Positions 1,221 to 13,551 are shown, counted from the stretch's first letter. The stretch: DNA of 64,000 nucleotides from an uncultured virus (IMG/VR IMGVR_UViG_3300028490_000003) (IMGVR_UViG_3300028490_000003), one strand, 5' to 3'. Program-made: numbers and translations. Notes: generated by a model from the letters alone, not told the origin.

Positions 1221-1230
1221 AAATAATTTG

Positions 1231-1364: not shown

Positions 1365-1448
1365 TCAAGTATAAAACATAAATTCCCCACCTTGCACTCT
1401 AATGCACTGTGTATTCTTTATCGAACTTGTATTTATAAAACGAATCAT
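1365..1448 (-). CDS. Putative leader peptide (27 aa) MIRFINTSSIKNTQCIRVQGGEFMFYT
   Basis: ATG..TGA ORF between the promoter motif (1485-1496) and the terminator; the stop overlaps TGAGGT, complementary to ACCTC in the terminator 5' arm. Confidence 0.7.
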   Translation of the reverse strand: MIRFINTSSIKNTQCIRVQGGEFMFYT

Positions 1449-1484
1449 TTGCGACTTTATTGTTTAAATTAATTTTTACACCTA

Positions 1485-1496
1485 TATAATACTAAA
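1485..1496 (-). promoter_or_regulatory. Recurrent TTTAGTATTAT promoter-like motif
   Basis: Same motif found in at least 8 other positions at the head of transcription units. Confidence 0.65.
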
Positions 1497-1519
1497 TATT
1501 TTTAATAATATAAAGTAAA

Positions 1520-2029
1520 TTAGAAAAATAAATATAATTTCCATTCCTCAGGTATATATTTAAGTTGCTTCATTAACATTAAATAATGAGGTCTTTTTGG
1601 AATTGGTATATCTTTACCATACTCTTCTAAAGTAAGATCTGCTTTTTCACCATTACATTTTTTACACGCAGTTACTAAGTTATCCCAAGTATTTTGACCT
1701 CCTTTAGCTTTTGGTACTACATGATCAAGCGTAAGAAGTTTTTTATTATCTTCCCCACAATAAACACATTCATAATTATCTCTACGATAAATATTATCTC
1801 TATTAAGAGGTACTTTATGATATTCTAGTTTAACGTATTTTTTTACACGAATAACTGAAGGTTTCTTTATATCCAGGTTAGGATTAACTAATTTAAAACT
1901 CTCAGGGTGTTCATGTATAATTTCAGCATTACCTTTATAAGCTATAACAAAGGCTCTCTCGGTAGTAATAATACTCCGTGCTGTGTATGTATTGTCGACA
2001 ACTAATGCCTTTGTATATTTATAACTCAT
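1520..2029 (-). CDS. HNH endonuclease (McrA-like)
   Basis: RDNYECVYCG...LTLDHVVPKAKGG...WDNLVTACKKCN. Confidence 0.92.
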   Translation of the reverse strand: MSYKYTKALVVDNTYTARSIITTERAFVIAYKGNAEIIHEHPESFKLVNPNLDIKKPSVIRVKKYVKLEYHKVPLNRDNIYRRDNYECVYCGEDNKKLLTLDHVVPKAKGGQNTWDNLVTACKKCNGEKADLTLEEYGKDIPIPKRPHYLMLMKQLKYIPEEWKLYLFF

Positions 2030-3165
2030 ATTTTAAACCATTTTGTTTTAAACATTATTGGATCAATCAAAGGTAAATTAGAAGCAGAAATACGCTCCAT
2101 TCTATACCCAAGCTTTAAAATACCTTTATGGCATGTCTGTCCAAATCTGTATAATTTATCAATTTGTTCTTTAGTAATAGGTACATCTTTTTCTCCTAAC
2201 TCAGCTCTTTCATAGCCTGCATAAAGAATCCAATTACCATGTTGTTTTACCCAACCATTTTGCTCTAACCATTCTGTTTCATTAACACTATTTTCAAAAT
2301 CTTCAGGGATAACTCCAACATCTACAAGCATATCTGCTATTTGATTATGCAACATAAGAGCTATATCACCATTGAGGCCATAATAGTCCCCATTAGGTGC
2401 TAACCATCCAGCGTCATATCCTTCAAGAATATCTACAGGCTTTATACCTTCTAGCGATATTCCATCAATCTTACGTACATCATCCATGTAATCTTCAAGA
2501 GCATCAATATAAGTAATTTTCTCTTCTATTGCAGCATCAGGTGTTTGAATCATTCTATGAAGTTCATAAAAACTTTCAGGAAGTTCTATATCTTCAGCAG
2601 TAAAACCCACTTGAACATCTAGTTCTTTACCTTTTCTAATAATATCACCCCAAACTTTAAACTGTCTAACACTTTTATCTAATATATCCATAGAGAGTTT
2701 AATAGCTCCAGCATATACAGAAAATTCTCTGTCTACTACATCAGTGATTGCTTTTACATTCTCTTCTCTAAAGTATTTATTAAGTTCTCCTCTACCATAA
2801 TAAATGTCAATTGTAGGGGCTTTAGTACCTTCTGTAGCTAAAAATGATCTAGCTAAAGTAAGTTCTTTACTAAATATACTTACTTTCTTTTGTATATTAT
2901 CAAACTTAATTAATCTACTGATATTTTTAGTATCTACAATAATTTCTTGTGCCTCCACATCTTCTTCTATAAAATAATGTCCTAATAATACTCTAAAGGC
3001 CATTGTTTCATCAATACCCACTAAACTATTTTTTATTACTTTAATAGCTTTCTTAAGATTGAAGTCATAGAGTAAAGTTTCTTGAGCAATATTTGTAAGT
3101 ATTTCTCCAAATCCTTCTCCTATAGTAAAATGTAATGTATCCATTTTAAAATATTGAATAATCAT
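2026..3165 (-). CDS. hypothetical phage protein
   Basis: 379 aa ORF with a GWLAPNG...H motif; function not recognised. Confidence 0.8.
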   Translation of the reverse strand: MIIQYFKMDTLHFTIGEGFGEILTNIAQETLLYDFNLKKAIKVIKNSLVGIDETMAFRVLLGHYFIEEDVEAQEIIVDTKNISRLIKFDNIQKKVSIFSKELTLARSFLATEGTKAPTIDIYYGRGELNKYFREENVKAITDVVDREFSVYAGAIKLSMDILDKSVRQFKVWGDIIRKGKELDVQVGFTAEDIELPESFYELHRMIQTPDAAIEEKITYIDALEDYMDDVRKIDGISLEGIKPVDILEGYDAGWLAPNGDYYGLNGDIALMLHNQIADMLVDVGVIPEDFENSVNETEWLEQNGWVKQHGNWILYAGYERAELGEKDVPITKEQIDKLYRFGQTCHKGILKLGYRMERISASNLPLIDPIMFKTKWFKI

Positions 3166-3400
3166 CTACAAAATGCGGATGAAATTTGTAAAATTCTTTA
3201 TATTGACCTGCATTAACTTTTGACCATATCTCATGTTTTTCAGGAGTCTCTCCCCAGTTAAACATATAATTTAACTTTTCTTTTCCTTGAACTCCAAATG
3301 CTTTTGAGTATCCTATTTTTTCAAGCCTTCGTTGAATAGCTATTTCTGCTATATCAGTAGGAATTTCTTCAAACTTTGAATTATATATTGTTCGTGCCAT
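3146..3400 (-). CDS. small protein with C-terminal DDYSIF tag
   Basis: 84 aa; FNWxxTPE motif shared with 7011-7268. Confidence 0.8.
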   Translation of the reverse strand: MARTIYNSKFEEIPTDIAEIAIQRRLEKIGYSKAFGVQGKEKLNYMFNWGETPEKHEIWSKVNAGQYKEFYKFHPHFVDDYSIF

Positions 3401-3402
3401 AT

Positions 3403-3645
3403 TTAATAATCAATTAAACATATCCTAGGGGTTTTTTTAAGTTTTTCCCATTTTTCCTCTGTTTCACAAGCATCATCAGCTGACCAAGTAGAATCAAAGA
3501 GTTTATAATCTCTTCCATCTTTTTCTACTATAAATTCTGTAGCTATACCATCTACTTTCATAGCTAATCCTTGATGGTCTGGTAACATTACTTCCAATTC
3601 ATCTGGCATATAATATAATGCTTTTTTTAATTCTAGTACTGTCAT
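3403..3645 (-). CDS. hypothetical protein
   Basis: 80 aa, tightly packed with neighbours. Confidence 0.75.
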   Translation of the reverse strand: MTVLELKKALYYMPDELEVMLPDHQGLAMKVDGIATEFIVEKDGRDYKLFDSTWSADDACETEEKWEKLKKTPRICLIDY

Positions 3646-3647
3646 AA

Positions 3648-3941
3648 CTAAAATATTGAATAACCGTCATAAACTTCATCTTTTTTCATAGGAGTATCAA
3701 TTCCTAACCCTGAAAATAATTCATTTTCTGCTACTACATAACGTCGTGTAATCCAGTTAGTAGCAGAACCATAGAAAGAAATCTTGTAGGTAGTAATTTT
3801 ACCTACAAGTTCTCTCTTTTCTTCTACATGTATATTATTTCCTCTATCTATTATAATACCTTTTACAGTACGTACAGCATTATTAAGGTTAAAATGTCCA
3901 TGTAATAAATTATTAGGATTTATTCCGTTCCTTTTAGCCAT
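3648..3941 (-). CDS. small protein with C-terminal DGYSIF tag
   Basis: 97 aa, tightly packed. Confidence 0.8.
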   Translation of the reverse strand: MAKRNGINPNNLLHGHFNLNNAVRTVKGIIIDRGNNIHVEEKRELVGKITTYKISFYGSATNWITRRYVVAENELFSGLGIDTPMKKDEVYDGYSIF

Positions 3942-4414
3942 TAGTCCTGTAAAATCTTACTAATATCACCTAAATCTTTGGCTAATTTTGCTTTAGCACT
4001 CAAGTTAGCTTCAAGCTTAGTTTTAACTTGTACTAATTTCTCTAATTCAGTTTTATTTTCAACTGATTGTACACGCCCAGCAATATCTGTTTTCCAAGCA
4101 GTACCAGTGTACCCCTGTAGTTTAAAAGGATATTTCTGTATATCTACTTTTAATTCAGAAGCAGCTTTTTCATATGCCTCTTGTTTAGCATTAACTACAG
4201 AATAAGCTTTAGTAAGTCCTTCTACAGTATCAATACTTTTGATAGTTCCAAAACCTGACAAACTGGCACCATTAGTAGTACCTGATTTACCTCTTTTAGG
4301 AGTTAAAGAATCAATTTTCTTTTGAACCATTTCTAATAATCCTGGAATATCATCCTGTCCTAAATTAGTTAAATTTAAGTTGTCTTTTTTTGTTGTAACT
4401 TCTGTTGTACTCAT
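3941..4414 (-). CDS. hypothetical helical protein
   Basis: 157 aa; stop overlaps the next start (TAATG). Confidence 0.85.
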   Translation of the reverse strand: MSTTEVTTKKDNLNLTNLGQDDIPGLLEMVQKKIDSLTPKRGKSGTTNGASLSGFGTIKSIDTVEGLTKAYSVVNAKQEAYEKAASELKVDIQKYPFKLQGYTGTAWKTDIAGRVQSVENKTELEKLVQVKTKLEANLSAKAKLAKDLGDISKILQD

Positions 4415-4445
4415 TTTTCTTATTTATTTATTTATTATTTTAATT

Positions 4446-4694
4446 TTAATTCCATTCTCTTGTTGAAAATAATGGTCTAATTTTTTCATATTCCATCATA
4501 TCTCTACTTATTTCATAAGAATCTGCCCATCGTTCTCTAACAGCTATTTTTTCTAGTTGCTCTCTACGATCGTCTATAGCTATTGCTATTAAATATTTTT
4601 CATCTTTATCAAATAATTTTTTAACTACCCAATCTCTAAATTGTATTTTCCATATACTAATCTTAAATTTTAAGTTGTTCATGAAAACATCCAT
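4446..4694 (-). CDS. hypothetical protein
   Basis: 82 aa ORF; start may be the second Met. Confidence 0.7.
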   Translation of the reverse strand: MDVFMNNLKFKISIWKIQFRDWVVKKLFDKDEKYLIAIAIDDRREQLEKIAVRERWADSYEISRDMMEYEKIRPLFSTREWN

Positions 4695-4879
4695 TTACCA
4701 ATTGACCAAAGTATCCATACTATTGCTGCAGACAATGCAATTTGTGCTACTATCCAAAGACATCCTCCACCTAGTGCTAAACCTGCGGCTGTTGCGTCTT
4801 CACTATCTTCCCCACTAAGAAGCATTCCTATATAGGTTGCTAGACCTAAAAATAAGATTATACCTATTATTATCCACAT
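4679..4879 (-). CDS. small membrane protein (2 TM)
   Basis: Two hydrophobic stretches. Confidence 0.75.
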   Translation of the reverse strand: MWIIIGIILFLGLATYIGMLLSGEDSEDATAAGLALGGGCLWIVAQIALSAAIVWILWSIGKWMFS

Positions 4880-4880
4880 A

Positions 4881-5033
4881 TTATATAGTTGTTATTATAT
4901 TATACATAGATGTAACAATAACAAATACACTTAGCCATGCTATTAATCCTAAAGCTATTGCTAAAGGTCTGTTGATTAAAACGTTTCTTTTAAAAGAAAA
5001 CATCCACCATACCATTGTAAAATATTCTTTCAT
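4881..5033 (-). CDS. small membrane protein (50 aa)
   Basis: Manual translation MKEYFTMVWW...IALGLIAWLSVFVIV...; exactly fills the gap between neighbours. Confidence 0.6.
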   Translation of the reverse strand: MKEYFTMVWWMFSFKRNVLINRPLAIALGLIAWLSVFVIVTSMYNIITTI

Positions 5034-5035
5034 AA

Positions 5036-5317
5036 CTATCTATTTTTTATTATTATTTGATAATCTACTACTGTACTATCTTTACCTTTTAAAGCATATA
5101 CTTCTATATCTCCTTGAGCTATTTTAGTATACATTACTTTTCTTTGTATTGATAATGCCACTAAACTAATAGCTGCTACTACAAAAATTAATAATGCCAT
5201 TGATCTTTCATCATATGGCCCAGCATTTGTTCCAAGTGTTAAAGATAAAAATATTATTAAACTAATTACACCTACTATTATGAGGCCTACTATTATTAGT
5301 ATTAAAACTATTTCCAT
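5036..5317 (-). CDS. small membrane protein (2 TM)
   Basis: Two hydrophobic stretches. Confidence 0.75.
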   Translation of the reverse strand: MEIVLILIIVGLIIVGVISLIIFLSLTLGTNAGPYDERSMALLIFVVAAISLVALSIQRKVMYTKIAQGDIEVYALKGKDSTVVDYQIIIKNR

Positions 5318-5338
5318 TTTATTTAAATTTAATTATTA

Positions 5339-5370
5339 AAAAAGGCCAAACAAATTAATGTTTGGCCAAT
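5339..5370 (-). terminator. Intrinsic terminator after the TROVE gene
   Basis: GGCCAAACA/TGTTTGGCC hairpin plus U-run on minus. Confidence 0.8.
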
Positions 5371-5391
5371 GAATATATCAAAATACTGAAG

Positions 5392-6975
5392 TTATATTAC
5401 TATAGCTTCAATTTCTTTCAAGAGTGCTCGTGGATCCAATTCTACTTTCTTAGCCATTTCATAAATGTCTTGACCATACCCGTATAATTGACACACTTTC
5501 TTTTCTTGTTTAAACATTGTAGAACCATATCCTTGAATATCTACAGTATAAATATAAGGCATACCATATTTTTTCTTATATGATTGATAAGAACTTCCAG
5601 AAACAATACTATCTCCTCCTTGTAAGTCAGAAATAATAAATATTCTATCATAATGAGTACCATTTAATTCAGCAAAAATATTTCCAAAATTAGTACCATG
5701 CCCAACTTTACCTTGACTATTAATAACAGTTTTTTTAATAGTATTAATACTATCAAGTCTATTAAATAGAATACCTTGAGTAGTTGTAGCAAATTGAAAT
5801 AAATCAGCACCAATACCTTTTGCAAAAGTAGCCCCAATAAGAGCAGCTTTTTCAATAGGATTCTTGTTAAGATTTACACTACCAATTTTACAACCAGAAC
5901 CCCACATACCCCACATAGATCCAGACGTATCTACAACAACAGCTGTATTACCATCAGGAAATAGCTCAGCAAGATTAGGAACAGCTAATTCATAAGCAGT
6001 ATCAATTGCTTTTAGAATCTTTAAAGGTATTTTCACACCTTCAGCTACCATAATCTCCATAGCGATATCTATTTGATGAGGAAAAATAAGAGATTGTTTG
6101 ATTAATTTCTTATCAGTCAACATAGCAACAACATCATCTATAGTATCAGCATTAATACCAGCTTTAAGAATATTTCTTAAGTTTCTGATTAATGCAAAAT
6201 AACCAATCTTTCTTGTACTTATAAGTTCAGAAAAGTTCTCTTTCTTAGCTTGTTTTACTTGTACTTCCGCTTCAGTCTTAGTAATTTCACCACTAATAAC
6301 TTTAGCAGCTACTTCTTGTCCAGATTTAGTATTCTTATCTTCAACAGTATTAAACTGTGTAAGATTACCTTTCATAAGTTTTTCAAATACTTCAATCATA
6401 TTATCCTCAGGTCTTGGATGAACTAAGTTAACAATATCTACAAGAGATATAGCTTTACCTTTTCCTTGATATTTCGCAAGTTCATAAGTATCAGCATGCT
6501 CTAAAGCATTTCTAAATCCTTTCTTTATTGCTCCAGGTAAAGGTTTTCCAGGGTTAAAATGAAAATAGGCTGCAGCGATTTCTAACATATCATCTAAACG
6601 ATGAACGATACCACCTGTCTCAGCTTTTCTATTTCTTTTGCTAAAAAACCTTTTTCCTAATTCCATACCAGATAGGTGAGGAACTAAACCTACAGCTCCT
6701 AAATGAGTAACAGAACGTTGTCCAATTACTGATCTAGTATATACTAAAGCTTTAGCAACAAATTCAATATCCTTAGGAGTTTTTGCTACTTTTCCAACTA
6801 ATTCTAACAGACGTTTACTTCTGTCATCTAAAGTTTCATAGTATTTATTACCGCTAATTCCAGTTGCTAATAAACTAATTAATTCTAATTTTGGGCTTAA
6901 TTTAAACCCTTCTCCACCTTGATGATTTATAATCTTTTCAGGGGCTCTTTTAGTTTTTTGGTTGTACATTGACAT
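5392..6975 (-). CDS. Ro60/Rsr-like TROVE-domain RNA-binding protein with C-terminal vWA domain
   Basis: N-terminal NHQGGEGF..SPKLEL, YELAKY, LxDIVNLVHPRP, YFALIRNLRNI, and MIDAS motif VDTSGSM...GT...IISDLQ. Confidence 0.93.
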   Translation of the reverse strand: MSMYNQKTKRAPEKIINHQGGEGFKLSPKLELISLLATGISGNKYYETLDDRSKRLLELVGKVAKTPKDIEFVAKALVYTRSVIGQRSVTHLGAVGLVPHLSGMELGKRFFSKRNRKAETGGIVHRLDDMLEIAAAYFHFNPGKPLPGAIKKGFRNALEHADTYELAKYQGKGKAISLVDIVNLVHPRPEDNMIEVFEKLMKGNLTQFNTVEDKNTKSGQEVAAKVISGEITKTEAEVQVKQAKKENFSELISTRKIGYFALIRNLRNILKAGINADTIDDVVAMLTDKKLIKQSLIFPHQIDIAMEIMVAEGVKIPLKILKAIDTAYELAVPNLAELFPDGNTAVVVDTSGSMWGMWGSGCKIGSVNLNKNPIEKAALIGATFAKGIGADLFQFATTTQGILFNRLDSINTIKKTVINSQGKVGHGTNFGNIFAELNGTHYDRIFIISDLQGGDSIVSGSSYQSYKKKYGMPYIYTVDIQGYGSTMFKQEKKVCQLYGYGQDIYEMAKKVELDPRALLKEIEAIVI

Positions 6976-7010
6976 TTTCTTATTATTTAATGGGTTATTA
7001 TTTATTTAAT

Positions 7011-7268
7011 TTAAAATACTGAATAATTATCAATATTTTCTGTATATTTTTTATAGAGAAGTTTAAGGTTATCATTTTGTTTATCCCAATAATTACCTCC
7101 TTCAGGAGATATATGCCAATTAAAACCTTTACCGTGAGTACACATATTAAGACACATATTATCATCTACTTCACATTCTTCAGCTAGTATATTTTTAACA
7201 GCTTTTTTATATAATACAGGATGTGATTCTTTTACAAACCATAAAGGTACTTCTTTTAATATGATCAT
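7011..7268 (-). CDS. small protein with C-terminal DNYSVF tag
   Basis: 85 aa; FNWHISPEGGNYW motif. Confidence 0.8.
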   Translation of the reverse strand: MIILKEVPLWFVKESHPVLYKKAVKNILAEECEVDDNMCLNMCTHGKGFNWHISPEGGNYWDKQNDNLKLLYKKYTENIDNYSVF

Positions 7269-7287
7269 AATTTTAATTTTGTTTAAT

Positions 7288-7320
7288 AAAAAAGGCCGCC
7301 CAAATTAATGAGCGGCCTTG
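7288..7320 (-). terminator. Intrinsic terminator after the Y-RNA-like cluster
   Basis: AAGGCCGC/GCGGCCTT hairpin plus U-run; loop region caaattaatg is identical to the 5339 terminator. Confidence 0.8.
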
Positions 7321-7327
7321 TTAAAAA

Positions 7328-7484
7328 AAGGTAGAGAATACGTGAGAGAGGTTTGCCATTTTTAGGGTGATGACACCACCATGGTTTACGAGCCCGATGT
7401 CTCGCTTCTTTCTCAATGTATAGTGTAATGTCTAGCATTACTTTATAAAATGTTACGATGTAACTCTTTCATTACTACTACCTT
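7328..7484 (-). ncRNA. Y-RNA-like (Yrl-like) ncRNA, copy A
   Basis: Terminal stem AAGGTAG/CTACCTT, conserved GTAGTA..GAGTTACATCG and ATTCTC motifs, close to the TROVE gene. Confidence 0.7.
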
Positions 7485-7490
7485 ATAATT

Positions 7491-7568: not shown

Positions 7569-7583
7569 TATATGTTTAAAAAA

Positions 7584-7715
7584 TAAGGGGGAATGCTGGG
7601 ATGAGCATAATGATATAAATGCAGGACTTGAACCCGCGACGTTTTGTTCCGAATACAAATGATCTAACCAACTGATCTAATTTACGATGAAACTCATGGA
7701 TCCTCACCACCCTTA
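7584..7715 (-). ncRNA. Y-RNA-like ncRNA, copy C, carrying a tRNA-like body (anticodon TCG)
   Basis: TAAGGG/CCCTTA stem, GAGTTTCATCG, then D arm GATCAGTTGGTTAGATC, TTTGT-ATTCGGA-ACAAA, T arm GCGGGTTCAAGTCCTGC. Confidence 0.75.
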
Positions 7716-7780
7716 ATTTTTTATTTTTCAATGAACTTTCTACTACTAAAACGTAATAGATATTGTTTTATTGTTTGAAA

Positions 7781-8044
7781 TTATTTAATTCCTCCAATAA
7801 GTACCCCATTTTTAAATATGAGTACTCCTTTTGTTTCTAAGATAAAATAAACAAATTTATTTTTACCTTTAGTAACTCTTTTTACTTTGATCACTTTAAC
7901 GCCTTTAGCTCCTTGCTTAGTTACGTTCTTAAGTGTGATAGCATTACTGTCAATAGTATATACTTGACCCTTTTTCATGTCTTGTGCCTGTGCAGATACC
8001 ACCATTCCGATGACTAATACTGCTAATATAAATAATTTTCTCAT
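7781..8044 (-). CDS. small secreted protein
   Basis: Sec signal peptide MRKLFILAVLVIGMVVSAQA-Q. Confidence 0.8.
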   Translation of the reverse strand: MRKLFILAVLVIGMVVSAQAQDMKKGQVYTIDSNAITLKNVTKQGAKGVKVIKVKRVTKGKNKFVYFILETKGVLIFKNGVLIGGIK

Positions 8045-8661
8045 TAAAATGTAACTTTTATACCTGCGTCAATCGAAGGTAATTTTAGAACATAATGTTC
8101 ATTTTCAAATTTTCTAGCTGCGTCTACTTTATAATCGTAATCACCATCATCAAAATACTCATCATCAAGTGTGATATCTAGATTCATCTTTTGCATATTA
8201 TATCCTGCAAATGCACCTACTGTAATACCATTTTTAAGTTCATAGTTATATCCAACATTACCTGTTATATGTAATTTACCTGTAGCGGCTACATTTATAT
8301 AACTATAGTTAAAATCATAATTATAAAACATATGTCCTACATCCATATTAACATATAAACCATCTACCCAAGGTAAATTGTATGCAAATCTTGCAAATAC
8401 TGGATAAGTCTGAAATCCTTCTTCTACAAAGTCATCTTTAAATATGTTAATTCCTGCTCCAATACCAACTTCGAAATCTCCAAGAGGTGCTGTAGCAATA
8501 GCATACGCCGTTAACTTATCAAAATCTAATTGTAGCTCATCGTTTTTATCAGCTACACTAAAACCATATCCTATCTCTAAATCAGGTCTAATTTTAAACT
8601 TTTGCGCGTAAACGCCCGTTGTGAATAACAATATAGCTATTCCTAAAATAATTCTTTTCAT
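8044..8661 (-). CDS. Outer-membrane beta-barrel protein
   Basis: Signal peptide (..VYA-Q), alternating aromatic/Gly beta strands, C-terminal AGIKVTF beta signal. Confidence 0.8.
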   Translation of the reverse strand: MKRIILGIAILLFTTGVYAQKFKIRPDLEIGYGFSVADKNDELQLDFDKLTAYAIATAPLGDFEVGIGAGINIFKDDFVEEGFQTYPVFARFAYNLPWVDGLYVNMDVGHMFYNYDFNYSYINVAATGKLHITGNVGYNYELKNGITVGAFAGYNMQKMNLDITLDDEYFDDGDYDYKVDAARKFENEHYVLKLPSIDAGIKVTF

Positions 8662-8679
8662 AATCTGTTTTTAAATTAG

Positions 8680-8763
8680 TACTCCTGACTGGATTCGAAC
8701 CAGCAAGCCTTTCGGCGTCAGATTTTAAGTCTGATGTGTTTACCTAAATTTCACCACAAGAGC
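8680..8763 (-). tRNA. tRNA-Leu(TAA)
   Basis: Loop CTTAAAA, long variable arm GCCGAAAGGC. Confidence 0.93.
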
Positions 8764-8770
8764 AGTTATG

Positions 8771-8974
8771 TTATTTACCATTTAAGATATCTAACAAAGC
8801 ACCCATTACTTGTTGGTTGCTTTCTCCCCAAAACATCTCACATTTAAAAACTCCTTTATCTATTACAAAAGGTTCCACTAAAAATATAGGATTATCAATC
8901 TCAGGATTTTCATCATATCTATGACATTTTTCTTTTACAGGACATTTAGTCCCTTTACACAGTGTTATGTCCAT
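8771..8974 (-). CDS. small Cys-rich protein
   Basis: MDITLCKGTKCPVKEKCHRY...CEMFW; start placed at the second Met. Confidence 0.75.
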   Translation of the reverse strand: MDITLCKGTKCPVKEKCHRYDENPEIDNPIFLVEPFVIDKGVFKCEMFWGESNQQVMGALLDILNGK

Positions 8975-9278
8975 AATCTTTAAATTTATCAGGTAGAACA
9001 CCGTTCCACCATATATATTCACTGTTTTCAGTTTTAAACCTACACAATTTACATTGCTCAGTTTCTATTTCTTCTAAAATCTCTGTAACCAATGTTGTGG
9101 TCCAGTTATCAAATAAACTACTATATAAAATAACACCGTTTCCTATTAAAGGATAAACACCATCATTTTTATTATATGTTCTATCGTCGCTCCAATTGAC
9201 AGACATAGATCTTTTACAATTAATCTCTTTGCCGTCTCGTTTTCTTCTTAGATGAAAAGGCATTACGGTATGAACCAT
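8955..9278 (-). CDS. hypothetical protein
   Basis: 107 aa; WTTTLVTEILE...FKTENSEY. Confidence 0.75.
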   Translation of the reverse strand: MVHTVMPFHLRRKRDGKEINCKRSMSVNWSDDRTYNKNDGVYPLIGNGVILYSSLFDNWTTTLVTEILEEIETEQCKLCRFKTENSEYIWWNGVLPDKFKDYGHNTV

Positions 9279-9478
9279 TTTTCATTCAACGTAAATTTTC
9301 CACCTGAGGATATTCCCCAACCTTCTACTACTTCAACAGTCCAATTACCTTTTCCTTTCATAAACATGCCAGGATCTAATTGAGCTAGTAATGTAACAGT
9401 AGCTGCTCCAAGTTCATGTGGAACTTCCATATTATCTTCGATCTCTACTGTATCACCGACTTCATAGATTATTTTCAT
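9263..9478 (-). CDS. hypothetical protein
   Basis: 71 aa; YEVGDTV start motif. Confidence 0.75.
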   Translation of the reverse strand: MKIIYEVGDTVEIEDNMEVPHELGAATVTLLAQLDPGMFMKGKGNWTVEVVEGWGISSGGKFTLNEKWFIP

Positions 9479-9508
9479 ATTATTTTATTTATTTAGTTTA
9501 GTATTAAA

Positions 9509-9647
9509 AACAGAGGAATGCTAGAAAGAGCAAAACCAAATTGTCTTCCCATTTTATATTATTCTTTAGTGGGAAGAGCAGGAGTCGAACCTACACTATT
9601 TAATGATATATGAATCACGAAGTAACTCTTATTCTTTACCATCTGTT
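9509..9647 (-). ncRNA. Y-RNA-like ncRNA, copy D (T arm plus closed acceptor-like stem)
   Basis: AACAGA/TCTGTT stem, GAGTTACTTCG, GTAGGTTCGACTCCTGC, TCTTCCCA/TGGGAAGA. Confidence 0.75.
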
Positions 9648-9656
9648 ATATTGTTG

Positions 9657-9742
9657 AGGAGAGAATGGGATTTGAACCCATGCGCCTGTTACAGCCTATT
9701 GATTTAGCAAACCAACCTCTTAAACCGCTTGAGTACCTCTCC
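9657..9742 (-). tRNA. tRNA-Ser(GCT)
   Basis: Loop TTGCTAA, long variable arm. Confidence 0.92.
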
Positions 9743-9791
9743 TGGAGCGGGCTTAGTGATAAAACTAAGTATCATCCCGCATGTATTATTG

Positions 9792-9872
9792 TCTCCCAGG
9801 TAGGGATCGAACCTACACGCCTTGCGGACCAGATTTACAGTCTAGCGAGCCAGCCAAATGCTCAACTGAGAG
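9792..9872 (-). tRNA. tRNA-Tyr(GTA) with C1-G72
   Basis: CTAGA-CTGTAAA-TCTGG, variable arm CCGCAAGG, T arm GTAGGTTCGATCCCTAC. Confidence 0.88.
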
Positions 9873-9878
9873 ATATTG

Positions 9879-9947
9879 TGGGAACAGCGAGATTCGAACT
9901 CACCTGCTAGCGATTTACAGTCGCGGCACCTATGCCTGAGTGCTCCC
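9879..9947 (-). tRNA. atypical tRNA-Tyr(GTA)-like gene
   Basis: GGGAGCA/TGTTCCC acceptor, GCGA-CTGTAAA-TCGC, T loop TTCGAAT; shrunken D arm and no long variable arm. Confidence 0.7.
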
Positions 9948-9994
9948 GTGATCATTGTTTATAAGCCTTTCAGCAGGTACAACGATAAAACCTT

Positions 9995-10282
9995 TTATTT
10001 TAATTTAGCTTCAATTTTTTCTAAAATACTTAATTTATCTTCAATTCTCCATAAAGAACTTAATATATGTTGTAATACAATTACACCTTGTTGTTGTACA
10101 GTAGCGCCAGTTTTAAAGTCTTTTTCAAATTCTTTTTCTTTATAACCAAAATTTTCTACTGCTACCATATTATCTATAAAAGCTTGTAATTGTTTAGGTT
10201 CCATACTATCTTTTAATTTTTGGATAGATCCTATTTTATGTTCTATTTGAGCTTTAAAACCATAATCATTTATATATGTCAT
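9995..10282 (-). CDS. hypothetical protein
   Basis: 95 aa ORF between tRNAs. Confidence 0.75.
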   Translation of the reverse strand: MTYINDYGFKAQIEHKIGSIQKLKDSMEPKQLQAFIDNMVAVENFGYKEKEFEKDFKTGATVQQQGVIVLQHILSSLWRIEDKLSILEKIEAKLK

Positions 10283-10307
10283 TTAATTTTATTTAATTTA
10301 TTATATG

Positions 10308-10380
10308 CGGTCTACATGGGAGTCGAACCCACAATCTTCGCAGTGACAGTGCAACATGTTACCAACAACACCTCTAGACC
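10308..10380 (-). tRNA. tRNA-Asp(GTC)
   Basis: Loop CTGTCAC, G73. Confidence 0.92.
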
Positions 10381-10484
10381 ATTTTATATTATAACGTTAA
10401 CGAGCACCTTTTATCCTTGTACTATTAAACCTTGGGAATGGCAGCGCAATTAAGTATCACCTATTATACCAACGGTTAACGTTT

Positions 10485-10580
10485 TAGTTATGAACGGATT
10501 TCATACCGCCAGCTCAACTCTTTAACAGAGAGACGCGTTATTTTCTACATATTTGTAGAGAGTATTAACACCACATAACT
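10485..10580 (-). tRNA. degenerate tRNA-Asn(GTT)-like RNA with expanded D arm
   Basis: AGTTATG/CATAACT acceptor, CTCT-CTGTTAA-AGAG, non-canonical T arm GGCGG-TATGAAAT-CCGTT. Confidence 0.55.
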
Positions 10581-10634
10581 TATGATATATCATTCATTAA
10601 CCCTTAAAAAGGTACTTAATGTAGTATATTTCAT

Positions 10635-10790
10635 TCAATCTTCTTTCTTCTTACTAAATATATAAAAAGTTAAAGCGAGTATACTTAATATAAAAAATAC
10701 TACAAAATCTGTTCTATTTTCAGCTACTACAGCATTATAAGACAGTATTAATAATGCCCAAAAAGACATTAAGCTTTCAGTTCTTTTCAT
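10635..10790 (-). CDS. small membrane protein
   Basis: MKRTESL... with two hydrophobic segments; the track's upstream extension overlaps tRNA-Ala. Confidence 0.65.
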   Translation of the reverse strand: MKRTESLMSFWALLILSYNAVVAENRTDFVVFFILSILALTFYIFSKKKED

Positions 10791-10812
10791 TTTATTTGTT
10801 TTAGTTAAATTG

Positions 10813-10888
10813 TGGAGCCGATGGGATTTGAACCCACGATCTTCTGATTGCAAAACAGACGCTTTAAGCCAGGCTAAGCTACGGTCCC
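10813..10888 (-). tRNA. tRNA-Ala(TGC)
   Basis: Loop TTTGCAA, G3.U70. Confidence 0.92.
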
Positions 10889-10896
10889 AAGTAAAA

Positions 10897-11047
10897 AATT
10901 AATAGAGAATAATGGAGGGAGTGAAACACATAAAGTGCCTGAATGAAAATCAGGTGACCTAACCACTAGTCAAATTGGGCAATGCTGCTCAATATAGGAT
11001 TCGAACCTATGAAACGAAGTAACTCCTATTCCTCACTACTATTAATT
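10897..11047 (-). ncRNA. Y-RNA-like ncRNA, copy E, carrying a circularly permuted tRNA-Glu(TTC)-like module
   Basis: AATTAATAG/CTATTAATT stem, GAGTTACTTCG, then T arm, closed acceptor hairpin, D arm, CCTGA-TTTTCAT-TCAGG. Confidence 0.78.
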
Positions 11048-11050
11048 TAT

Positions 11051-11428
11051 TTATTTATATAATACCATTATGGTTGATGGTGCTTGTACTACTACAGTAT
11101 CATCATAAATATATACTACTATATTATCAGAGTAAAAAATTATTTCATCTTTTCTTTGAGTAAGCGTTTGTATATTAGTTAAATGTATATTAGATGTTTG
11201 TCCATCATCAGTATGTAAATCTATTGTTATAGTTTTATCTGGATTAAATGAAAATATACCACGTACATGTATTATATCAGAATAGACAAACATATGAGAG
11301 TATTTATCCATGTGGGCAATTGATGCTTGTGTAGGATAAAATTGTAGTCTTTCTCTACTTTCTCCTTCATAATCTTGTGCAAATAGCATATTACTCAAGA
11401 ATAATACTATTATTAATATTTTTTTCAT
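11051..11428 (-). CDS. secreted protein
   Basis: Signal peptide MKKILIIVLFLSNMLFA-Q. Confidence 0.8.
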   Translation of the reverse strand: MKKILIIVLFLSNMLFAQDYEGESRERLQFYPTQASIAHMDKYSHMFVYSDIIHVRGIFSFNPDKTITIDLHTDDGQTSNIHLTNIQTLTQRKDEIIFYSDNIVVYIYDDTVVVQAPSTIMVLYK

Positions 11429-11447
11429 ATCTGCTTATTTAAATTTG

Positions 11448-11521
11448 AGCCTCCAGAGGGATTCGAACCCACGACATTCTCATTACAAGTGAGATGCTCT
11501 GGCCAACTGAGCTATGGAGGC
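11448..11521 (-). tRNA. tRNA-Thr(TGT)
   Basis: Loop CTTGTAA, canonical cloverleaf. Confidence 0.94.
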
Positions 11522-11640
11522 ATGGCAGGGGCTTTGGTACCATACGCCTGAGGTTGGACCCCCCAGGAAACTCGAGCCCCTATATTGCAATTACTTTGAC
11601 ACTTTAAAACTTCACAAGAGGTGTGTAATTGCTATATTAT

Positions 11641-11829
11641 TTAAAATATTTCATAGTCGTATTCTATAGGCTTTTTCCATTGCTCTATTAAATACTTTGC
11701 TTTATTAGCTGCATAAGGAACTGGAATAGATAACCAAGCAGCTGTTGTTAATTCCATTACATAGGCTTCTATGTTAAGTTCAGTAATTTCTCCTGTAACA
11801 TATAAATAATGTAGATCTTTTACATCCAT
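11641..11829 (-). CDS. small protein with C-terminal YDYEIF tag
   Basis: 62 aa. Confidence 0.75.
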   Translation of the reverse strand: MDVKDLHYLYVTGEITELNIEAYVMELTTAAWLSIPVPYAANKAKYLIEQWKKPIEYDYEIF

Positions 11830-12065
11830 TATTTTATATATTTTGAGATATTAATTACTCCTTCTATATTACCATGTCTTGCAACAATGTCCTCATCTTC
11901 ATCATCTAATTCAGCATTTTGAATATCTTCTGCATTAAATGCAAATTCTTCAGATAATTCTAAAAGTCTTATTCTATCTATTTGATGTCCCTCTTCAACA
12001 AGTTCTCCATCTATATAAATAGCTTCCCAATCACCAGATTGAGTATTTATAATTATTATTTTCAT
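11829..12065 (-). CDS. acidic hypothetical protein
   Basis: 78 aa; GDWEAIYIDG..EGH. Confidence 0.8.
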   Translation of the reverse strand: MKIIIINTQSGDWEAIYIDGELVEEGHQIDRIRLLELSEEFAFNAEDIQNAELDDEDEDIVARHGNIEGVINISKYIK

Positions 12066-12067
12066 AT

Positions 12068-12358
12068 TTAAAATATTTCATAATTATCATTAAATGTAGT
12101 ACCCATTATTTCATCTACATAATTACTATATGCTTCAGCACTTATCATAGGATCCCAAGCTTTATTATCAATACCTACACGACCATTAAAATAGCCTACG
12201 TATCTCATATTAGTAACTTTATAATAATCAAAATTTACATCATTTTGGTTATCAGAGTTTCTAAATTTATTAAAGATTAAATCAGCTTTATTTATATATA
12301 ACTGTCTCTCTTTATTATTACTTACTGAAACACAAAAAGTATCTGTTAGTATATTCAT
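12068..12358 (-). CDS. small protein with C-terminal DNYEIF tag
   Basis: Start moved to MNILTD because the track's start overlaps tRNA-Trp. Confidence 0.75.
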   Translation of the reverse strand: MNILTDTFCVSVSNNKERQLYINKADLIFNKFRNSDNQNDVNFDYYKVTNMRYVGYFNGRVGIDNKAWDPMISAEAYSNYVDEIMGTTFNDNYEIF

Positions 12359-12385
12359 TTTGTTTAATTTATTTATTAAAATTTG

Positions 12386-12456
12386 CACGCCTTAAAGGAT
12401 TCGAACCCTTACAAAGAGGTTTGGAAGCTCTTGTGCTACCATTACACTAAAGGCGC
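12386..12456 (-). tRNA. tRNA-Trp(CCA)
   Basis: Loop TTCCAAA by cloverleaf spacing, G73; C31.C39 mismatch. Confidence 0.85.
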
Positions 12457-12500
12457 GTGTTAATTATTTTATTATCCAATATGTCAAAGACCATGTCTTG

Positions 12501-12583
12501 TACTCCTAGAGAGAATCGAACTCTCATGCCTCTCGGCACTAGATCCTAAATCTAGCGTGTCTACCTAATTCCACCATAGGAGC
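12501..12583 (-). tRNA. tRNA-Leu(TAG)
   Basis: CTAGA-TTTAGGA-TCTAG, long variable arm. Confidence 0.93.
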
Positions 12584-12754
12584 AAAATGAACTATAAAAC
12601 CAGGAGCGTACCCTGGAGACTAATTCCACCACATCCCGTGGCTCTTTTAATTTCATAATGGATCCCTAAAAACTCTTTCGAGAAAACTTAGATCCATCAT
12701 TAATAGTTACACCGAGGGGATCCCTTACACTATTAACGTTTTCTTCTCATTTTG

Positions 12755-12829
12755 GGTGAAAGATGGGTTTCGAACCCACGACCTCTTGAACCACAATCAA
12801 GCGTTCTAACCAACTGAACTACAATCACC
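12755..12829 (-). tRNA. tRNA-His(GTG)
   Basis: Loop TTGTGGT, G-1:C73. Confidence 0.93.
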
Positions 12830-12836
12830 ATATTAA

Positions 12837-13085
12837 CTACTTACATCCTATTGGTATATCTTCATATATCATATGAGTAGTATCTTTCATTATTAAGATA
12901 GCACTACCATCACAAAACGTGTAAATAATATTACCTTCATCACCATCTTCTTCATCTTTAAATGTTGAGACAGCTTTTTCTTTAATTTTATTAACTACTT
13001 CTTTTGTTAAATTACCTTCAAATACATGTACTACAGGTAAATATGAGGGTTTAACAGCAAAGTCTAATAGTGTTTTTGCTATCAT
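12837..13085 (-). CDS. hypothetical protein
   Basis: 82 aa ORF. Confidence 0.75.
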   Translation of the reverse strand: MIAKTLLDFAVKPSYLPVVHVFEGNLTKEVVNKIKEKAVSTFKDEEDGDEGNIIYTFCDGSAILIMKDTTHMIYEDIPIGCK

Positions 13086-13086
13086 T

Positions 13087-13221
13087 TTATTTTAAGCATT
13101 CATCAACTAGTTCTTGAAATAAGTCTCTTGGTAATTCAAATGCTGATATAAGTACATCTATATCATCTTCTGACATTTCTTCCAAGCGCTTTCTCAACTT
13201 TGTTAATTTTATTTCTGCCAT
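13087..13221 (-). CDS. small hypothetical protein (44 aa)
   Basis: Manual translation MAEIKLTKLRKRLEEMSEDDIDVLISAFELPRDLFQELVDECLK; abuts the next start. Confidence 0.65.
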   Translation of the reverse strand: MAEIKLTKLRKRLEEMSEDDIDVLISAFELPRDLFQELVDECLK

Positions 13222-13252
13222 TTTATTTAATTTAGTATTTTAATGAACTTAG

Positions 13253-13326
13253 TATGTCTAGAGGGACTCAAACCCCCAACCTCTAAGGCCGTAACTTAGG
13301 GCTCTATTCAATTGAGCTATAGACAT
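13253..13326 (-). tRNA. tRNA-Arg(ACG)
   Basis: CTAAG-TTACGGC-CTTAG. Confidence 0.92.
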
Positions 13327-13331
13327 AAATG

Positions 13332-13407
13332 TCGGAGTGGTCAGATTCGAACTGACGTGCTCTGCATCCCAAATGCAGCGAGATAAACCGTGCTCCTCTA
13401 CACCCCG
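13332..13407 (-). tRNA. tRNA-Pro(TGG)
   Basis: CTGCA-TTTGGGA-TGCAG, C1-G72, A73. Confidence 0.93.
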
Positions 13408-13411
13408 TAAT

Positions 13412-13447
13412 AAAAAAACCTGATACTTTTAAGGGATATCAGGTTTT
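13412..13447 (-). terminator. Intrinsic terminator/attenuator immediately upstream of the large tRNA cluster
   Basis: AAAACCTGATAT-CCCTTAAAA-GTATCAGGTTTTTTT. Confidence 0.85.
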
Positions 13448-13473
13448 ATATATTTAACTAAAATATTATGATA

Positions 13474-13551
13474 TCACCTAACATACCTATCCGCACTATG
13501 ATCTAGCCATAATGTTCGCGGAGTTTGATATGTGTATAAAGATGTTCTCAT
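13474..13551 (-). CDS. Putative leader peptide (25 aa) MRTSLYTYQTPRTLWLDHSADRYVR
   Basis: ATG..TGA ORF between promoter motif and terminator; its codons match downstream tRNAs; AGGTGATATCA across the stop is complementary to the terminator 5' arm. Confidence 0.8.
   Translation of the reverse strand: MRTSLYTYQTPRTLWLDHSADRYVR

What the first reader, a model, noticed from the sequence alone, without database searches (positions are those of the whole stretch)
1365..13551. The two leaders split the genetic code, predicting unseen tRNAs left of the window
The leader at 13.5 kb has no I, F, N, K, C, G or E codons. The leader at 1.4 kb has no P, L, W, D, H or A codons, and carries TCG ATA AAG AAT CAG TGC ATT AGA GTG CAA GGT GGG GAA TTT ATG. 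Together they cover all 20 amino acids. Inference: each leader monitors the tRNAs of its own operon, so the transcript starting at 1.3 kb should continue past position 1 with further tRNAs such as Ser-TGA, Ile, Lys, Asn, Cys, Arg-TCT, Val, Gly and Phe.
Basis: partly seen in the sequence, partly recalled or inferred. Interest (0 to 1): 0.85.

Follow-up and report, generated by a model that had tools for sequence, protein, structure and literature searches.

The report
Leader-peptide switches gating phage tRNA genes
Two tiny reading frames in this phage DNA each sit between a promoter and a transcription stop signal directly in front of tRNA genes and are spelled in the codons those tRNAs read. 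They therefore look like switches that let the phage make a set of tRNAs only when ribosomes read those codons slowly, a control I could not find in print for tRNA genes.

Summary
Leader L2 (13551-13474, minus strand) lacks I,F,N,K,C,G,E. Leader L1 (1448-1365) lacks P,L,W,D,H,A. Together they cover all 20 amino acids.

Each frame is the first AUG after a shared promoter-like box. Each is followed by an intrinsic terminator 5-6 nt before the first tRNA.

L2 carries a cognate codon for all 12 tRNAs of its unit (0 of 100,000 random draws; 0 of 483 decoy small ORFs score as well). A predicted antiterminator (-13.7 kcal/mol against -12.4 for the terminator) is covered by a ribosome at the last codons.

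Seven further leaders in other phage contigs, including cultured Cellulophaga phage phi4:1, show the same design. One phage pair has two leaders that divide its tRNAs in the same way.

L1 matches its 3 visible tRNAs, but its antiterminator is weak, and the DNA left of the window could not be obtained. The predicted Ile/Phe/Asn/Lys/Cys/Gly/Val tRNAs are therefore plausible (about 0.6) but untested.

The best reading is multivalent leader-peptide attenuation of tRNA arrays. Seven literature searches found nothing on this. Earlier notes of this scan describe the same kind of element on other DNA.

The parts
13610..13619 (-). Upstream promoter box TTTACTTTAT of the L2 cassette (-35-like, inferred)
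   Evidence: three minus-strand copies found in the window. Two of them sit 13 nt upstream of the TTTAGTATTAT motif of the two leaders. Alignment.
13586..13596 (-). Promoter-like motif TTTAGTATTAT of the L2 cassette (function inferred)
   Evidence: 6 exact copies in the window; counting one mismatch, 20 matches against 10.4 expected, and 0 of 100 shuffles reach 20; all 6 exact copies lie in front of genes, including both leaders and the tmRNA-like gene.
13474..13551 (-). Leader ORF L2, 25 codons plus stop, the first AUG of the presumed transcript
   Evidence: Codon match to the downstream tRNAs.
13476..13488 (-). 5' strand of the predicted L2 antiterminator (last codons AGG TAT GTT AGG T)
   Evidence: pairs with 13432-13444; the element alone is -13.7 kcal/mol; it forms with a ribosome at codons 4-18 and is lost with a ribosome at the last four codons; 5 of 200 shuffles give as good a duplex.
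13412..13446 (-). Intrinsic terminator of the L2 cassette (hairpin plus T7), 5 nt before tRNA-Pro (4's count). Its 5' arm is shared with the antiterminator.
   Evidence: -11.3 kcal/mol; -12.4 kcal/mol alone.
7612..13407 (-). tRNA unit behind L2: Pro(tgg) Arg(acg) His(gtg) Leu(tag) Trp(cca) Thr(tgt) Ala(tgc) Asp(gtc) Tyr(gta) Ser(gct) Leu(taa) Arg(tcg), interspersed with small ORFs
   Evidence: ARAGORN; Rfam tRNA, the same 15 genes.
7288..7319 (-). Strong terminator that probably closes the L2 transcription unit
   Evidence: -20.4 kcal/mol, the strongest on the minus strand in this region.
1510..1519 (-). Upstream promoter box TTTACTTTAT of the L1 cassette
1486..1496 (-). Promoter-like motif TTTAGTATTAT of the L1 cassette
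1365..1448 (-). Leader ORF L1, 27 codons plus stop, the first AUG of the presumed transcript
1354..1366 (-). Candidate (weak) 5' strand of an L1 antiterminator, overlapping the stop codon
   Evidence: pairs with 1332-1343, only -5.8 kcal/mol; not better than shuffles (59 of 200).
1307..1338 (-). Intrinsic terminator of the L1 cassette (hairpin plus T7), 6 nt before tRNA-Gln (5's count)
   Evidence: -10.2 kcal/mol; -14.5 kcal/mol with the A/U extension.
1063..1301 (-). Visible tRNAs behind L1: Gln(ttg), Glu(ttc), Met(cat). Protein ORFs follow to the window edge with no terminator-like site.

Best explanation
Both elements are ribosome-mediated (leader-peptide) transcription attenuators placed in front of phage tRNA genes.

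Proposed sequence of events:
1. A phage promoter (TTTACTTTAT-N13-TTTAGTATTAT) starts a transcript.
2. Its first AUG opens a 25- or 27-codon frame. This frame is a panel of one or two codons for each tRNA encoded downstream.
3. If all these codons are decoded quickly, the ribosome reaches the end of the frame. There it covers the RNA strand that could pair with the 5' arm of the terminator.
4. The terminator hairpin then forms and transcription stops after roughly 170 nt, 5-6 nt before the first tRNA.
5. If any panel codon is decoded slowly because its charged tRNA is scarce, the ribosome stalls upstream. The antiterminator forms, and RNA polymerase reads on into the tRNA array.

The result is negative feedback on the tRNA supply, one loop per tRNA subset.

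What is shown here: the ORFs, the shared promoter-like boxes, the terminators, the codon/anticodon correspondence with its statistics, and the predicted alternative pairing. What is inferred: that the frames are translated, that the hairpins terminate, the direction of the switch, and the biological trigger (host tRNA loss during infection or through tRNA-cutting defences).
For: ANATOMY
- The layout is promoter-like boxes, first AUG, ORF, hairpin plus T7, then a tRNA within 5-6 nt. It occurs twice with the same boxes.

CODON MATCH OF L2
- 17 of 24 non-start codons are cognate to the 12 downstream tRNAs, against an expected fraction of 0.29 (binomial 3.5e-5).
- 12 of 12 anticodons are covered, which 0 of 100,000 draws from the phage's own codon usage achieve.
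- 0 of 483 real decoy small ORFs reach its score.

SWITCH OF L2
- The antiterminator (13488-13476 with 13444-13432) is -13.7 kcal/mol against -12.4 for the terminator.
- In the transcript cut before the 3' arm, the 5' arm is paired upstream with probability 0.8-0.9 when a ribosome sits at codons 4-18. This falls to 0.14-0.18 at the last four codons (by one search's narrower measure it falls only to about 0.5).

RECURRENCE
- Loci were fetched only by a tRNA-Pro word. Seven more array heads carry an ORF plus terminator whose codons cover the array: L034 11/11, L025B 11/11, L024 6/6, L035 6/6, L029 4/4 and L032 11/12 anticodons, plus phi4:1, which lacks statistical power.
- Fisher combination of the seven informative leaders, window L2 plus the six listed above with phi4:1 left out (all four uses of 'seven informative leaders' in this report mean this set): 2.5e-19.
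- The own leader-array pairing is the best of 5040 permutations.
- Matched codons concentrate where a stall leaves the antiterminator free: 82 of 125 there against 18 of 76 after it, Fisher 5e-9.
- The upstream-to-5'-arm duplex beats shuffles in most leaders. Shuffles as good, of 200: L024 0, L029 2, L035 3, win_L2 5, phi4 7, L025B 11, L034 12, L032 21.
- In phi4:1, L029 and L024 the untranslated leader sequesters the antiterminator strand (P 0.05-0.22). A ribosome at the panel codons frees it (0.65-0.75), as in the classical 1:2 / 2:3 / 3:4 scheme.

TRANSLATION CONTEXT
- Only 1 of 45 long ORFs of the window has a Shine-Dalgarno-like motif. Its absence before the leaders is therefore normal for this phage.
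- phi4:1 and phi17:2 differ in the leader region by one synonymous CAG>CAA within the ORF and a single-T indel upstream of it.
Against: - There are no RNA or ribosome data. No RNA run holds the stretch.
- At equilibrium the full-length leaders always fold into the terminator (P 0.8-0.97 at every ribosome position). The switch therefore rests on co-transcriptional order, which was assumed and not computed.
- L1 is weak. Only 4 of 26 codons match its 3 visible tRNAs (p=0.35). Its antiterminator is -5.8 against -14.5 kcal/mol and no better than 59 of 200 shuffles.
- L2 holds 7 codons that no window tRNA reads strictly: AGA, TCT, CAA (read only by the L1-unit tRNA-Gln), ACT, AGG twice and GTT.
- In several leaders (L035, L034, L024, L025B) the antiterminator strand is free again once the ribosome nears the stop codon. 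This needs a timing argument.
- Not every array has the element. The Ile(tat)-Pro-Thr group shows none (seen in L018 and L020; six similar loci not inspected). Nor do the isolated tRNAs of L021 or the second array of L032.
- The comparison loci all come from one tRNA-Pro word, so they are not a random sample of phages.
- I picked the leader ORFs by eye as the ORF just upstream of the terminator. In L024 that is an internal ATG of a 56-codon frame.
- I set the sensing-window limits by eye from the profile.
- Whether transcription and translation are coupled in the unknown host is not known.
Confidence: 0.72

Rival explanations
1. The elements are attenuators, but the signal is general translation or amino-acid status (any slowing of the ribosome) rather than the supply of the particular tRNAs. 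The broad codon panel simply samples the code. L1 in particular would be a generic sensor or a relic, with no further tRNAs behind it.
For: L1 matches only 4 of 26 codons with its visible tRNAs. The two leaders together cover all 20 amino acids. Contig L041 carries a 50-codon frame with all 20 amino acids before its array. L032's leader covers 19 amino acids.
Against: The own leader-array pairing is the best of 5040 permutations. L2 uses only 2 residues outside its array's ten amino acids. L1 lacks exactly six of those ten (3e-4 by chance). L032's leader lacks Thr, as does that phage's tRNA set. A generic sensor would not need this partition.
Confidence: 0.12
2. They are not attenuators. The stretches are small independent transcripts (sRNAs or small-protein genes) with their own promoter and terminator. 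The tRNAs would be transcribed by read-through or from other promoters, and the codon match has another or no function.
For: The equilibrium fold favours the terminator at all ribosome positions. A Ro60/TROVE protein lies between the units, so small partner RNAs might be expected. In L035, L025B and L032 the terminator lies 33-110 nt before the first tRNA, which leaves room for another promoter.
Against: No Rfam family matches either stretch at E<=1. The leader peptides share no sequence across phages, yet each tracks its own array. Matched codons cluster in the part of the frame that the folding defines as the sensing part. The terminators sit 5-6 nt from the first tRNA in the window.
Confidence: 0.08
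3. The codon panel acts without translation. Anticodons of uncharged tRNAs pair directly with the leader RNA and stabilise an antiterminator, as in T-box riboswitches.
For: A codon-anticodon correspondence is also what a T-box specifier shows. This is recalled knowledge and was not tested here.
Against: There is no T-box match in the Rfam scan. All nine panels are in one frame, opened by ATG and closed by a stop. The boundary where matches end coincides with the reach of a ribosome footprint. A T-box reads one codon, not a dozen.
Confidence: 0.03

Closest known systems
Leader-peptide transcription attenuators of amino-acid biosynthesis operons (trpL, hisL, leuL, pheL; the multivalent thr and ilv leaders). 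Recalled textbook knowledge; abstract starts of PMC1183508 and PMC3082878 seen in the listings.
   Same: A short ORF in the 5' leader, regulatory codons tied to what the operon supplies, and an intrinsic terminator before the structural genes. An alternative antiterminator is blocked by a ribosome that reaches the end of the ORF. In three comparison leaders a 1:2-like pairing silences the untranslated leader.
   Different: The regulated genes are tRNAs, not enzymes. The regulatory codons are a panel of up to 12 different species with one or two copies each, not runs of one amino acid, so any single shortage would act (an OR gate). The elements lie in phage genomes, in two paralogous copies that divide the tRNA set. 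No sequence or structure match to the Rfam leader families was found.
T-box riboswitches (tRNA-sensing antitermination)
   Same: Both would couple tRNA status to read-through of a terminator by way of codon-anticodon recognition.
   Different: A T-box is untranslated, reads one specifier codon, binds the tRNA acceptor end and controls synthetase or biosynthesis genes. Here there is a translated multi-codon frame and no T-box match.
Earlier notes of this scan on other DNA (e1-2978539, e1-5886956, e1-5802700, e1-5943215, e1-5355203, e1-5525145, e1-6043918). These are AI notes, not independent evidence.
   Same: A leader ORF spelled in the codons of the downstream phage or spare tRNA array, followed by a switchable terminator. 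One note mentions a shared promoter per tRNA block. None found a publication.
   Different: They concern other genomes; no look-alike sequence to this window is on record. New here is the explicit two-leader partition of the code. It can be checked in a second phage pair (L034/L025), and there is a cultured example (Cellulophaga phage phi4:1).

Membership tests
Ribosome-mediated (leader-peptide) transcription attenuator | A short ORF in the 5' leader, between the promoter and the first regulated gene | tested here: met
   25- and 27-codon ORFs, each the first ATG 34-37 nt after the promoter-like motif. Translation itself was not shown.
Ribosome-mediated (leader-peptide) transcription attenuator | An intrinsic terminator between the ORF and the regulated genes | tested here: met
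   hairpin plus T7 at 13412-13446 and 1307-1338, 5 and 6 nt before tRNA-Pro and tRNA-Gln. This is a prediction only.
Ribosome-mediated (leader-peptide) transcription attenuator | A mutually exclusive antiterminator whose 5' strand is covered by a ribosome at the end of the ORF | tested here: inconclusive
   L2 meets it in silico (duplex better than 195 of 200 shuffles). L1 does not clearly meet it (-5.8 against -14.5 kcal/mol; 59 of 200 shuffles as good). The equilibrium fold of full leaders always gives the terminator.
Ribosome-mediated (leader-peptide) transcription attenuator | Regulatory codons tied to the product of the regulated genes | tested here: met
   L2: 12 of 12 anticodons and 17 of 24 codons. 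L1: 3 of 3 visible anticodons but not significant. Six of the seven comparison leaders are significant; phi4:1 has no power.
Ribosome-mediated (leader-peptide) transcription attenuator | Read-through rises when the cognate charged tRNA is scarce | not testable with these tools
   No RNA run holds the stretch. This needs Term-seq or reporter assays.
Rfam leader families (Trp, His, Leu, Thr, Phe leaders) and T-box | Match to the family covariance model | tested here: not met
   window 1-15000, all 4227 Rfam families at E<=1. Nothing at 1302-1520 or 13408-13640.
Y RNA (partner of the Ro60/TROVE protein encoded at 5392-6975) | Match to Y RNA models, with a Ro-binding helix formed by the 5' and 3' ends | tested here: not met
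   no Y RNA family hit in 1-15000. Considered only because of the TROVE hit.

The most novel reading that the evidence does not exclude
Phage tRNA arrays are commonly placed under codon-panel attenuators, so each block of tRNA genes is transcribed only when the ribosome reports that one of exactly those tRNAs is running short. That could follow host tRNA decay or cleavage by anticodon-nuclease defences. The leader would then be a readable table of contents. From the L1 frame alone one can predict that this phage carries Ile, Phe, Asn, Lys, Cys, Gly and Val tRNAs (perhaps also Ser-UGA and Arg-UCU) downstream of tRNA-Met, outside the window.
Probability: 0.5. Interest if true: 0.9.

Novelty: new variant of a known kind. 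Interest (0 to 1): 0.8.

Why it matters
Why phages carry tRNAs, and how they use them, is an open question. Current ideas are codon-usage compensation, replacement of degraded host tRNAs, and escape from tRNA-cutting immunity. The abstract start of PMC12409363, seen in the listing, states that tRNAs are targets of bacterial immune systems and that some viruses encode their own.

A demand-sensing switch in front of the arrays would mean that the phage measures decoding capacity codon by codon and answers with the matching tRNAs. That would be a new regulatory target for a classical mechanism.

It also gives a sequence-only rule for predicting the tRNA content of incomplete phage genomes. A ready experimental system exists in cultured Cellulophaga phage phi4:1, where the frame is unannotated.

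Finally, it would be a natural multi-input OR-gate attenuator of about 170 nt, which may interest synthetic biology.

Tried and rejected
LEFT FLANK OF THE WINDOW
- No whole genome is held.
- The first 40 bases give 0 matches in viral contigs and in metagenome contigs.
- Protein-based searches of viral contigs:
  - The phosphatase gave 15 loci at 35-57% identity. Of these 15, 12 had no tRNA call at all and 3 had only a few tRNA or tmRNA calls; none showed a comparable array. They share no other gene with the window.
  - The TROVE protein gave 1 locus without tRNAs.
  - The 379-aa and 114-aa neighbours gave none.

SIMILAR DNA
- Megablast of window 1-15000 against phage records hit only tRNA genes.
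- Distant blastn with the two leader cassettes gave only chance-level hits.
- The two-box promoter pattern found one unrelated contig without tRNAs.
- The scan's own index has no look-alike stretch.

EXPRESSION
- No RNA holder is listed.
- Laying three DNA contig runs of one sample showed a low-depth relative (depth 2) covering 13236-13619, among other parts. The table did not list the differences inside the leader, so nothing could be concluded.

FOLDING
- The equilibrium fold of complete leaders with ribosome masks gave the terminator at every position. I replaced this analysis with the truncated-transcript analysis.

READINGS CONSIDERED AND DROPPED
- Y RNA, prompted by the neighbouring TROVE protein: no Rfam hit.
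- phi4:1 as statistical support: its array serves 75% of codon usage, so the test has no power, although the first seven tRNAs match the stretch QRLHLQELEQP.

LITERATURE
Seven full-text searches found no paper on attenuation or leader peptides in front of tRNA genes. Only listings and abstract starts were read, and no paper was opened. Subscription-only papers are not covered.

Full report
WHAT IS THERE

The window is AT-rich (32.7% G+C) phage-like DNA. No whole genome is held for it. All 15 tRNA genes lie on the minus strand between 1063 and 13407 (Rfam finds the same 15).

- L2, 13551-13474(-): MRTSLYTYQTPRTLWLDHSADRYVR*
- L1, 1448-1365(-): MIRFINTSSIKNTQCIRVQGGEFMFYT*

The stated missing amino acids and the joint coverage of all 20 are correct. 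By draws from the window's own residue usage, joint coverage has probability 0.009.

ANATOMY OF THE TWO CASSETTES

Both frames sit in the same kind of cassette:
- a box TTTACTTTAT
- 13 nt, then TTTAGTATTAT
- 34-37 nt with no ATG
- the frame
- a hairpin followed by T7 (13412-13446 and 1307-1338)
- the first tRNA, 5-6 nt later's count (4-5's)

TTTAGTATTAT occurs six times exactly in the window. Each copy lies in front of a gene, including a tmRNA-like gene, so it is probably a phage promoter element (inferred).

The L2 unit runs through 12 tRNAs to a very strong terminator at 7288-7319. Behind L1 come Gln, Glu and Met, then protein ORFs to the window edge, with no terminator-like site on that strand.

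Only 1 of 45 long ORFs has a Shine-Dalgarno-like motif. The lack of one before the leaders is therefore normal for this phage.

CODON MATCH

With strict wobble rules, 17 of L2's 24 non-start codons are cognate to the 12 tRNAs of its unit. The expected fraction from the phage's own long ORFs is 0.29 (binomial 3.5e-5). Every one of the 12 anticodons has a codon in the frame, which 0 of 100,000 random draws achieve. None of 483 real small ORFs (20-40 codons) from the same sources scores as well.

L1 contains codons for its three visible tRNAs, but this is not significant (p=0.17). Only 4 of its 26 codons are served by them.

L1 does contain all ten amino acids that the L2 unit does not serve (0.01 by chance). 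It lacks six of the ten that the L2 unit does serve (3e-4).

RELATED SEQUENCES

Nothing close to this phage was found.

The window's tRNA-Pro is 86% identical to that of Cellulophaga phages. Upstream of tRNA-Pro, the first of 22 tRNAs in phage phi4:1, lies an unannotated 22-codon frame, MKIQRLHLQELEQPIISGGTGV*. A terminator follows it, 6 nt before the tRNA. The stretch QRLHLQELEQP uses exactly the amino acids of the first seven tRNAs: Pro, Glu, Gln, His, Leu, Leu, Arg.

I then fetched every locus that holds a 34- or 26-base word of this tRNA-Pro:
- 6 loci in viral contigs
- 15 in metagenome contigs
- 2 in genome contigs

Some are the same contig twice (L019=L029, L023=L032, L022=phi4:1).

Where the head of an array is visible, an ORF plus terminator stands in front of it in these cases:
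- phi4:1
- L029: ...IQIPQQPR..., followed by Pro Gln Pro Ile Gln Arg Pro
- L035/L026: ...TVTTYQPKQYTQGGK..., followed by Pro Pro Gln Gln Tyr Tyr Thr Gly Gly
- L034...NNIHISNRVQWYQPCFIHS..., followed by Ile Asn Tyr Trp Phe Pro Gln His Ser Ile Arg; Cys follows in the 90%-identical L025
- L025 second leader: MKTTMTYKLEVVKTRLEGADS..., followed by Ser Asp Val Glu Thr Lys Met Met Ala Gly Gly Leu
- L024: ...EQHNNTWQP..., followed by Pro Glu His Gln Asn Trp
- L032

L041 has a 50-codon frame with all 20 amino acids, then a terminator.

No such element was seen in these cases:
- before the Ile(tat)-Pro-Thr arrays (L018 and L020 inspected; six similar loci not inspected)
- before the isolated tRNAs of L021
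- before the second array of L032

Three loci (L030, L033, L042) start inside an array and cannot be judged. The head of L029's first array is unclear.

STATISTICS ON THE COMPARISON SET

Coverage of the array's anticodons, with simulation p under strict wobble:
- L034: 11/11, p=3.5e-4
- L025B: 11/11, p=2.4e-3
- L024: 6/6, p=3.6e-3
- L032: 11/12, p=2.7e-4
- L029: 4/4, p=6.5e-3
- L035: 6/6 with 16 of 34 codons matched, joint p=8e-5

phi4:1 has no power because its array serves 75% of codon usage.

Combining the seven informative leaders (window L2 plus the six listed above; phi4:1 and window L1 left out) gives 2.5e-19. This figure assumes independence and rests on my by-eye choice of ORFs.

Pairing each leader with its own array is the best of all 5040 permutations. 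This rules out general phage codon usage as the cause.

In L032 the amino acids in the leader and the amino acids with a tRNA in the locus are the same 19, both lacking Thr. That set includes tRNAs 7-10 kb downstream behind protein genes.

THE SWITCH

With the full leader at equilibrium, the terminator always wins. Support therefore rests on the usual co-transcriptional argument.

I folded each transcript up to the terminator loop, with 28 nt masked for a ribosome at each codon in turn. In that analysis the 5' arm of the terminator pairs with a strand at or near the end of the frame while the ribosome is at the early codons. The pairing drops sharply once the ribosome moves past them.

For L2 the antiterminator is 13488-13476 with 13444-13432. 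It is -13.7 kcal/mol, against -12.4 for the terminator.

The drop falls just after the matched codons. Examples are after CCG in phi4:1 and L024, after CGC in L029, and after the GGG AAG codons in L035. Over the same seven informative leaders, 82 of 125 codons before the drop are matched against 18 of 76 after it (Fisher 5e-9). I set these limits by eye.

The best upstream partner of the 5' arm beats shuffled upstream sequence in most cases. The counts of shuffles as good, out of 200, are 0, 2, 3, 5, 7, 11, 12 and 21. For window L1 the count is 59, so it does not beat shuffles.

In phi4:1, L029 and L024 the untranslated leader hides the antiterminator strand, as region 1 does in the trp leader.

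Window L1 is the weak case. Its candidate antiterminator (1366-1354 with 1332-1343) is only -5.8 kcal/mol, against -14.5 for the terminator.

MOST LIKELY MECHANISM

Each cassette is a multivalent leader-peptide attenuator. Slow decoding of any panel codon stalls the ribosome early and leaves the antiterminator free, so RNA polymerase reads into the tRNA block. Fast decoding carries the ribosome onto the antiterminator strand, and the transcript ends after roughly 170 nt.

This is feedback on tRNA supply, one loop per tRNA subset. A plausible trigger is loss of host tRNAs during infection or through tRNA-cutting defences (inference only).

The tRNAs predicted left of position 1 could not be checked.

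For it:
- L1 is a paralogous copy of the L2 cassette.
- L1 excludes L2's amino acids.
- About two thirds of sensing-window codons are served in the other leaders.
- The two-leader partition is seen complete in L034/L025.
- L032 shows that served tRNAs can lie kilobases away.

Against it:
- L1's switch is weak.
- At least 1 kb of protein genes follows tRNA-Met.
- The array could have been lost.

I put the chance that several of the predicted tRNAs lie there at about 0.6.

COMPARISON WITH WHAT IS KNOWN

The logic is that of the trp/his/leu/thr/ilv leaders. The stretches match no Rfam leader family or T-box. The regulated genes are tRNAs, and the panel has up to a dozen different codons.

Seven full-text searches found no description of attenuation or leader peptides before tRNA genes (listings only).

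Notes of this scan report the same kind of element on other genomes. I reached my reading before seeing them. They are not independent evidence.

VERDICT

For L1 it remains open, and the predicted tRNAs are untested.

Noticed in passing
window 16767-17263 (-): Match to the permuted (two-piece) tmRNA family RF04321 at 48 bits (gathering score 47). The same TTTAGTATTAT motif precedes it at 17289-17299, and a T-arm-like GGTTCGAATCC lies near its 5' end. ARAGORN did not call it. A strong terminator follows at 16691-16724.
   Followed up: partly
window 5392-6975 (-): A 527-aa protein with a TROVE (Ro60/Rsr-like) domain (E=2.6e-14) lies between the two tRNA units, with its own terminator at 5338-5367. 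No Y RNA family was found in 1-15000. One relative at 56% identity occurs in a viral contig without tRNAs nearby.
   Followed up: partly
window 1520-2029 (-): An HNH endonuclease ORF (169 aa) ends just upstream of the L1 promoter boxes. A calcineurin-like phosphoesterase runs off the left edge at 1-621.
   Followed up: no
whole window: Only 1 of 45 long ORFs has a Shine-Dalgarno-like motif. Upstream regions are A/T-rich, as in Bacteroidota and their phages. The host is unknown. The closest tRNA-Pro is in Cellulophaga phages.
   Followed up: partly
L017 12127-12195 (-), which is NC_021788.1 87065-87133: An unannotated 22-codon leader frame plus terminator lies in front of the 22-tRNA array of cultured Cellulophaga phage phi4:1. 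In the aligned leader region, phage phi17:2 differs only by one synonymous CAG>CAA in the ORF and a single-T indel upstream of it. A TAnnTTTG-like box ends about 4 nt before the ATG, so the mRNA may be nearly leaderless (read from the sequence; inferred).
   Followed up: partly
L032 9554-9646 (same contig as L023): The 30-residue leader uses 19 amino acids, and the locus encodes tRNAs for the same 19. Both lack Thr. 24 of 29 codons and 19 of 20 anticodons are matched when both arrays are counted.
   Followed up: yes
L041 4789-4941: A contig binned in a bacterial MAG carries a 50-codon frame with all 20 amino acids. A terminator follows it, then a promoter-like TAtaTTTA box, then an array of at least 19 tRNAs. 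An undetected tRNA-like sequence lies just before tRNA-Gln.
   Followed up: partly
L034 and L025, upstream of both leaders: The two leaders of this phage pair share one promoter of the Bacteroidota type (TTTG...TAtaTTTG). This parallels the two window leaders, which share their own boxes (sequences as printed).
   Followed up: no
window 14624-14691 (-): A weak match to the int-alpA RNA family: 33.6 bits, below the gathering score of 35.8.
   Followed up: no
window 13236-13619 and 13563-13604: One public DNA sample (coded run X1) holds a low-depth contig (depth 2) with 16 differing letters and 3 gaps over 384 bases across tRNA-Arg, tRNA-Pro, the terminator and L2. The promoter-box stretch also lies on several more abundant contigs of that sample, with 6-8 differences in about 42 bases.
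   Followed up: partly
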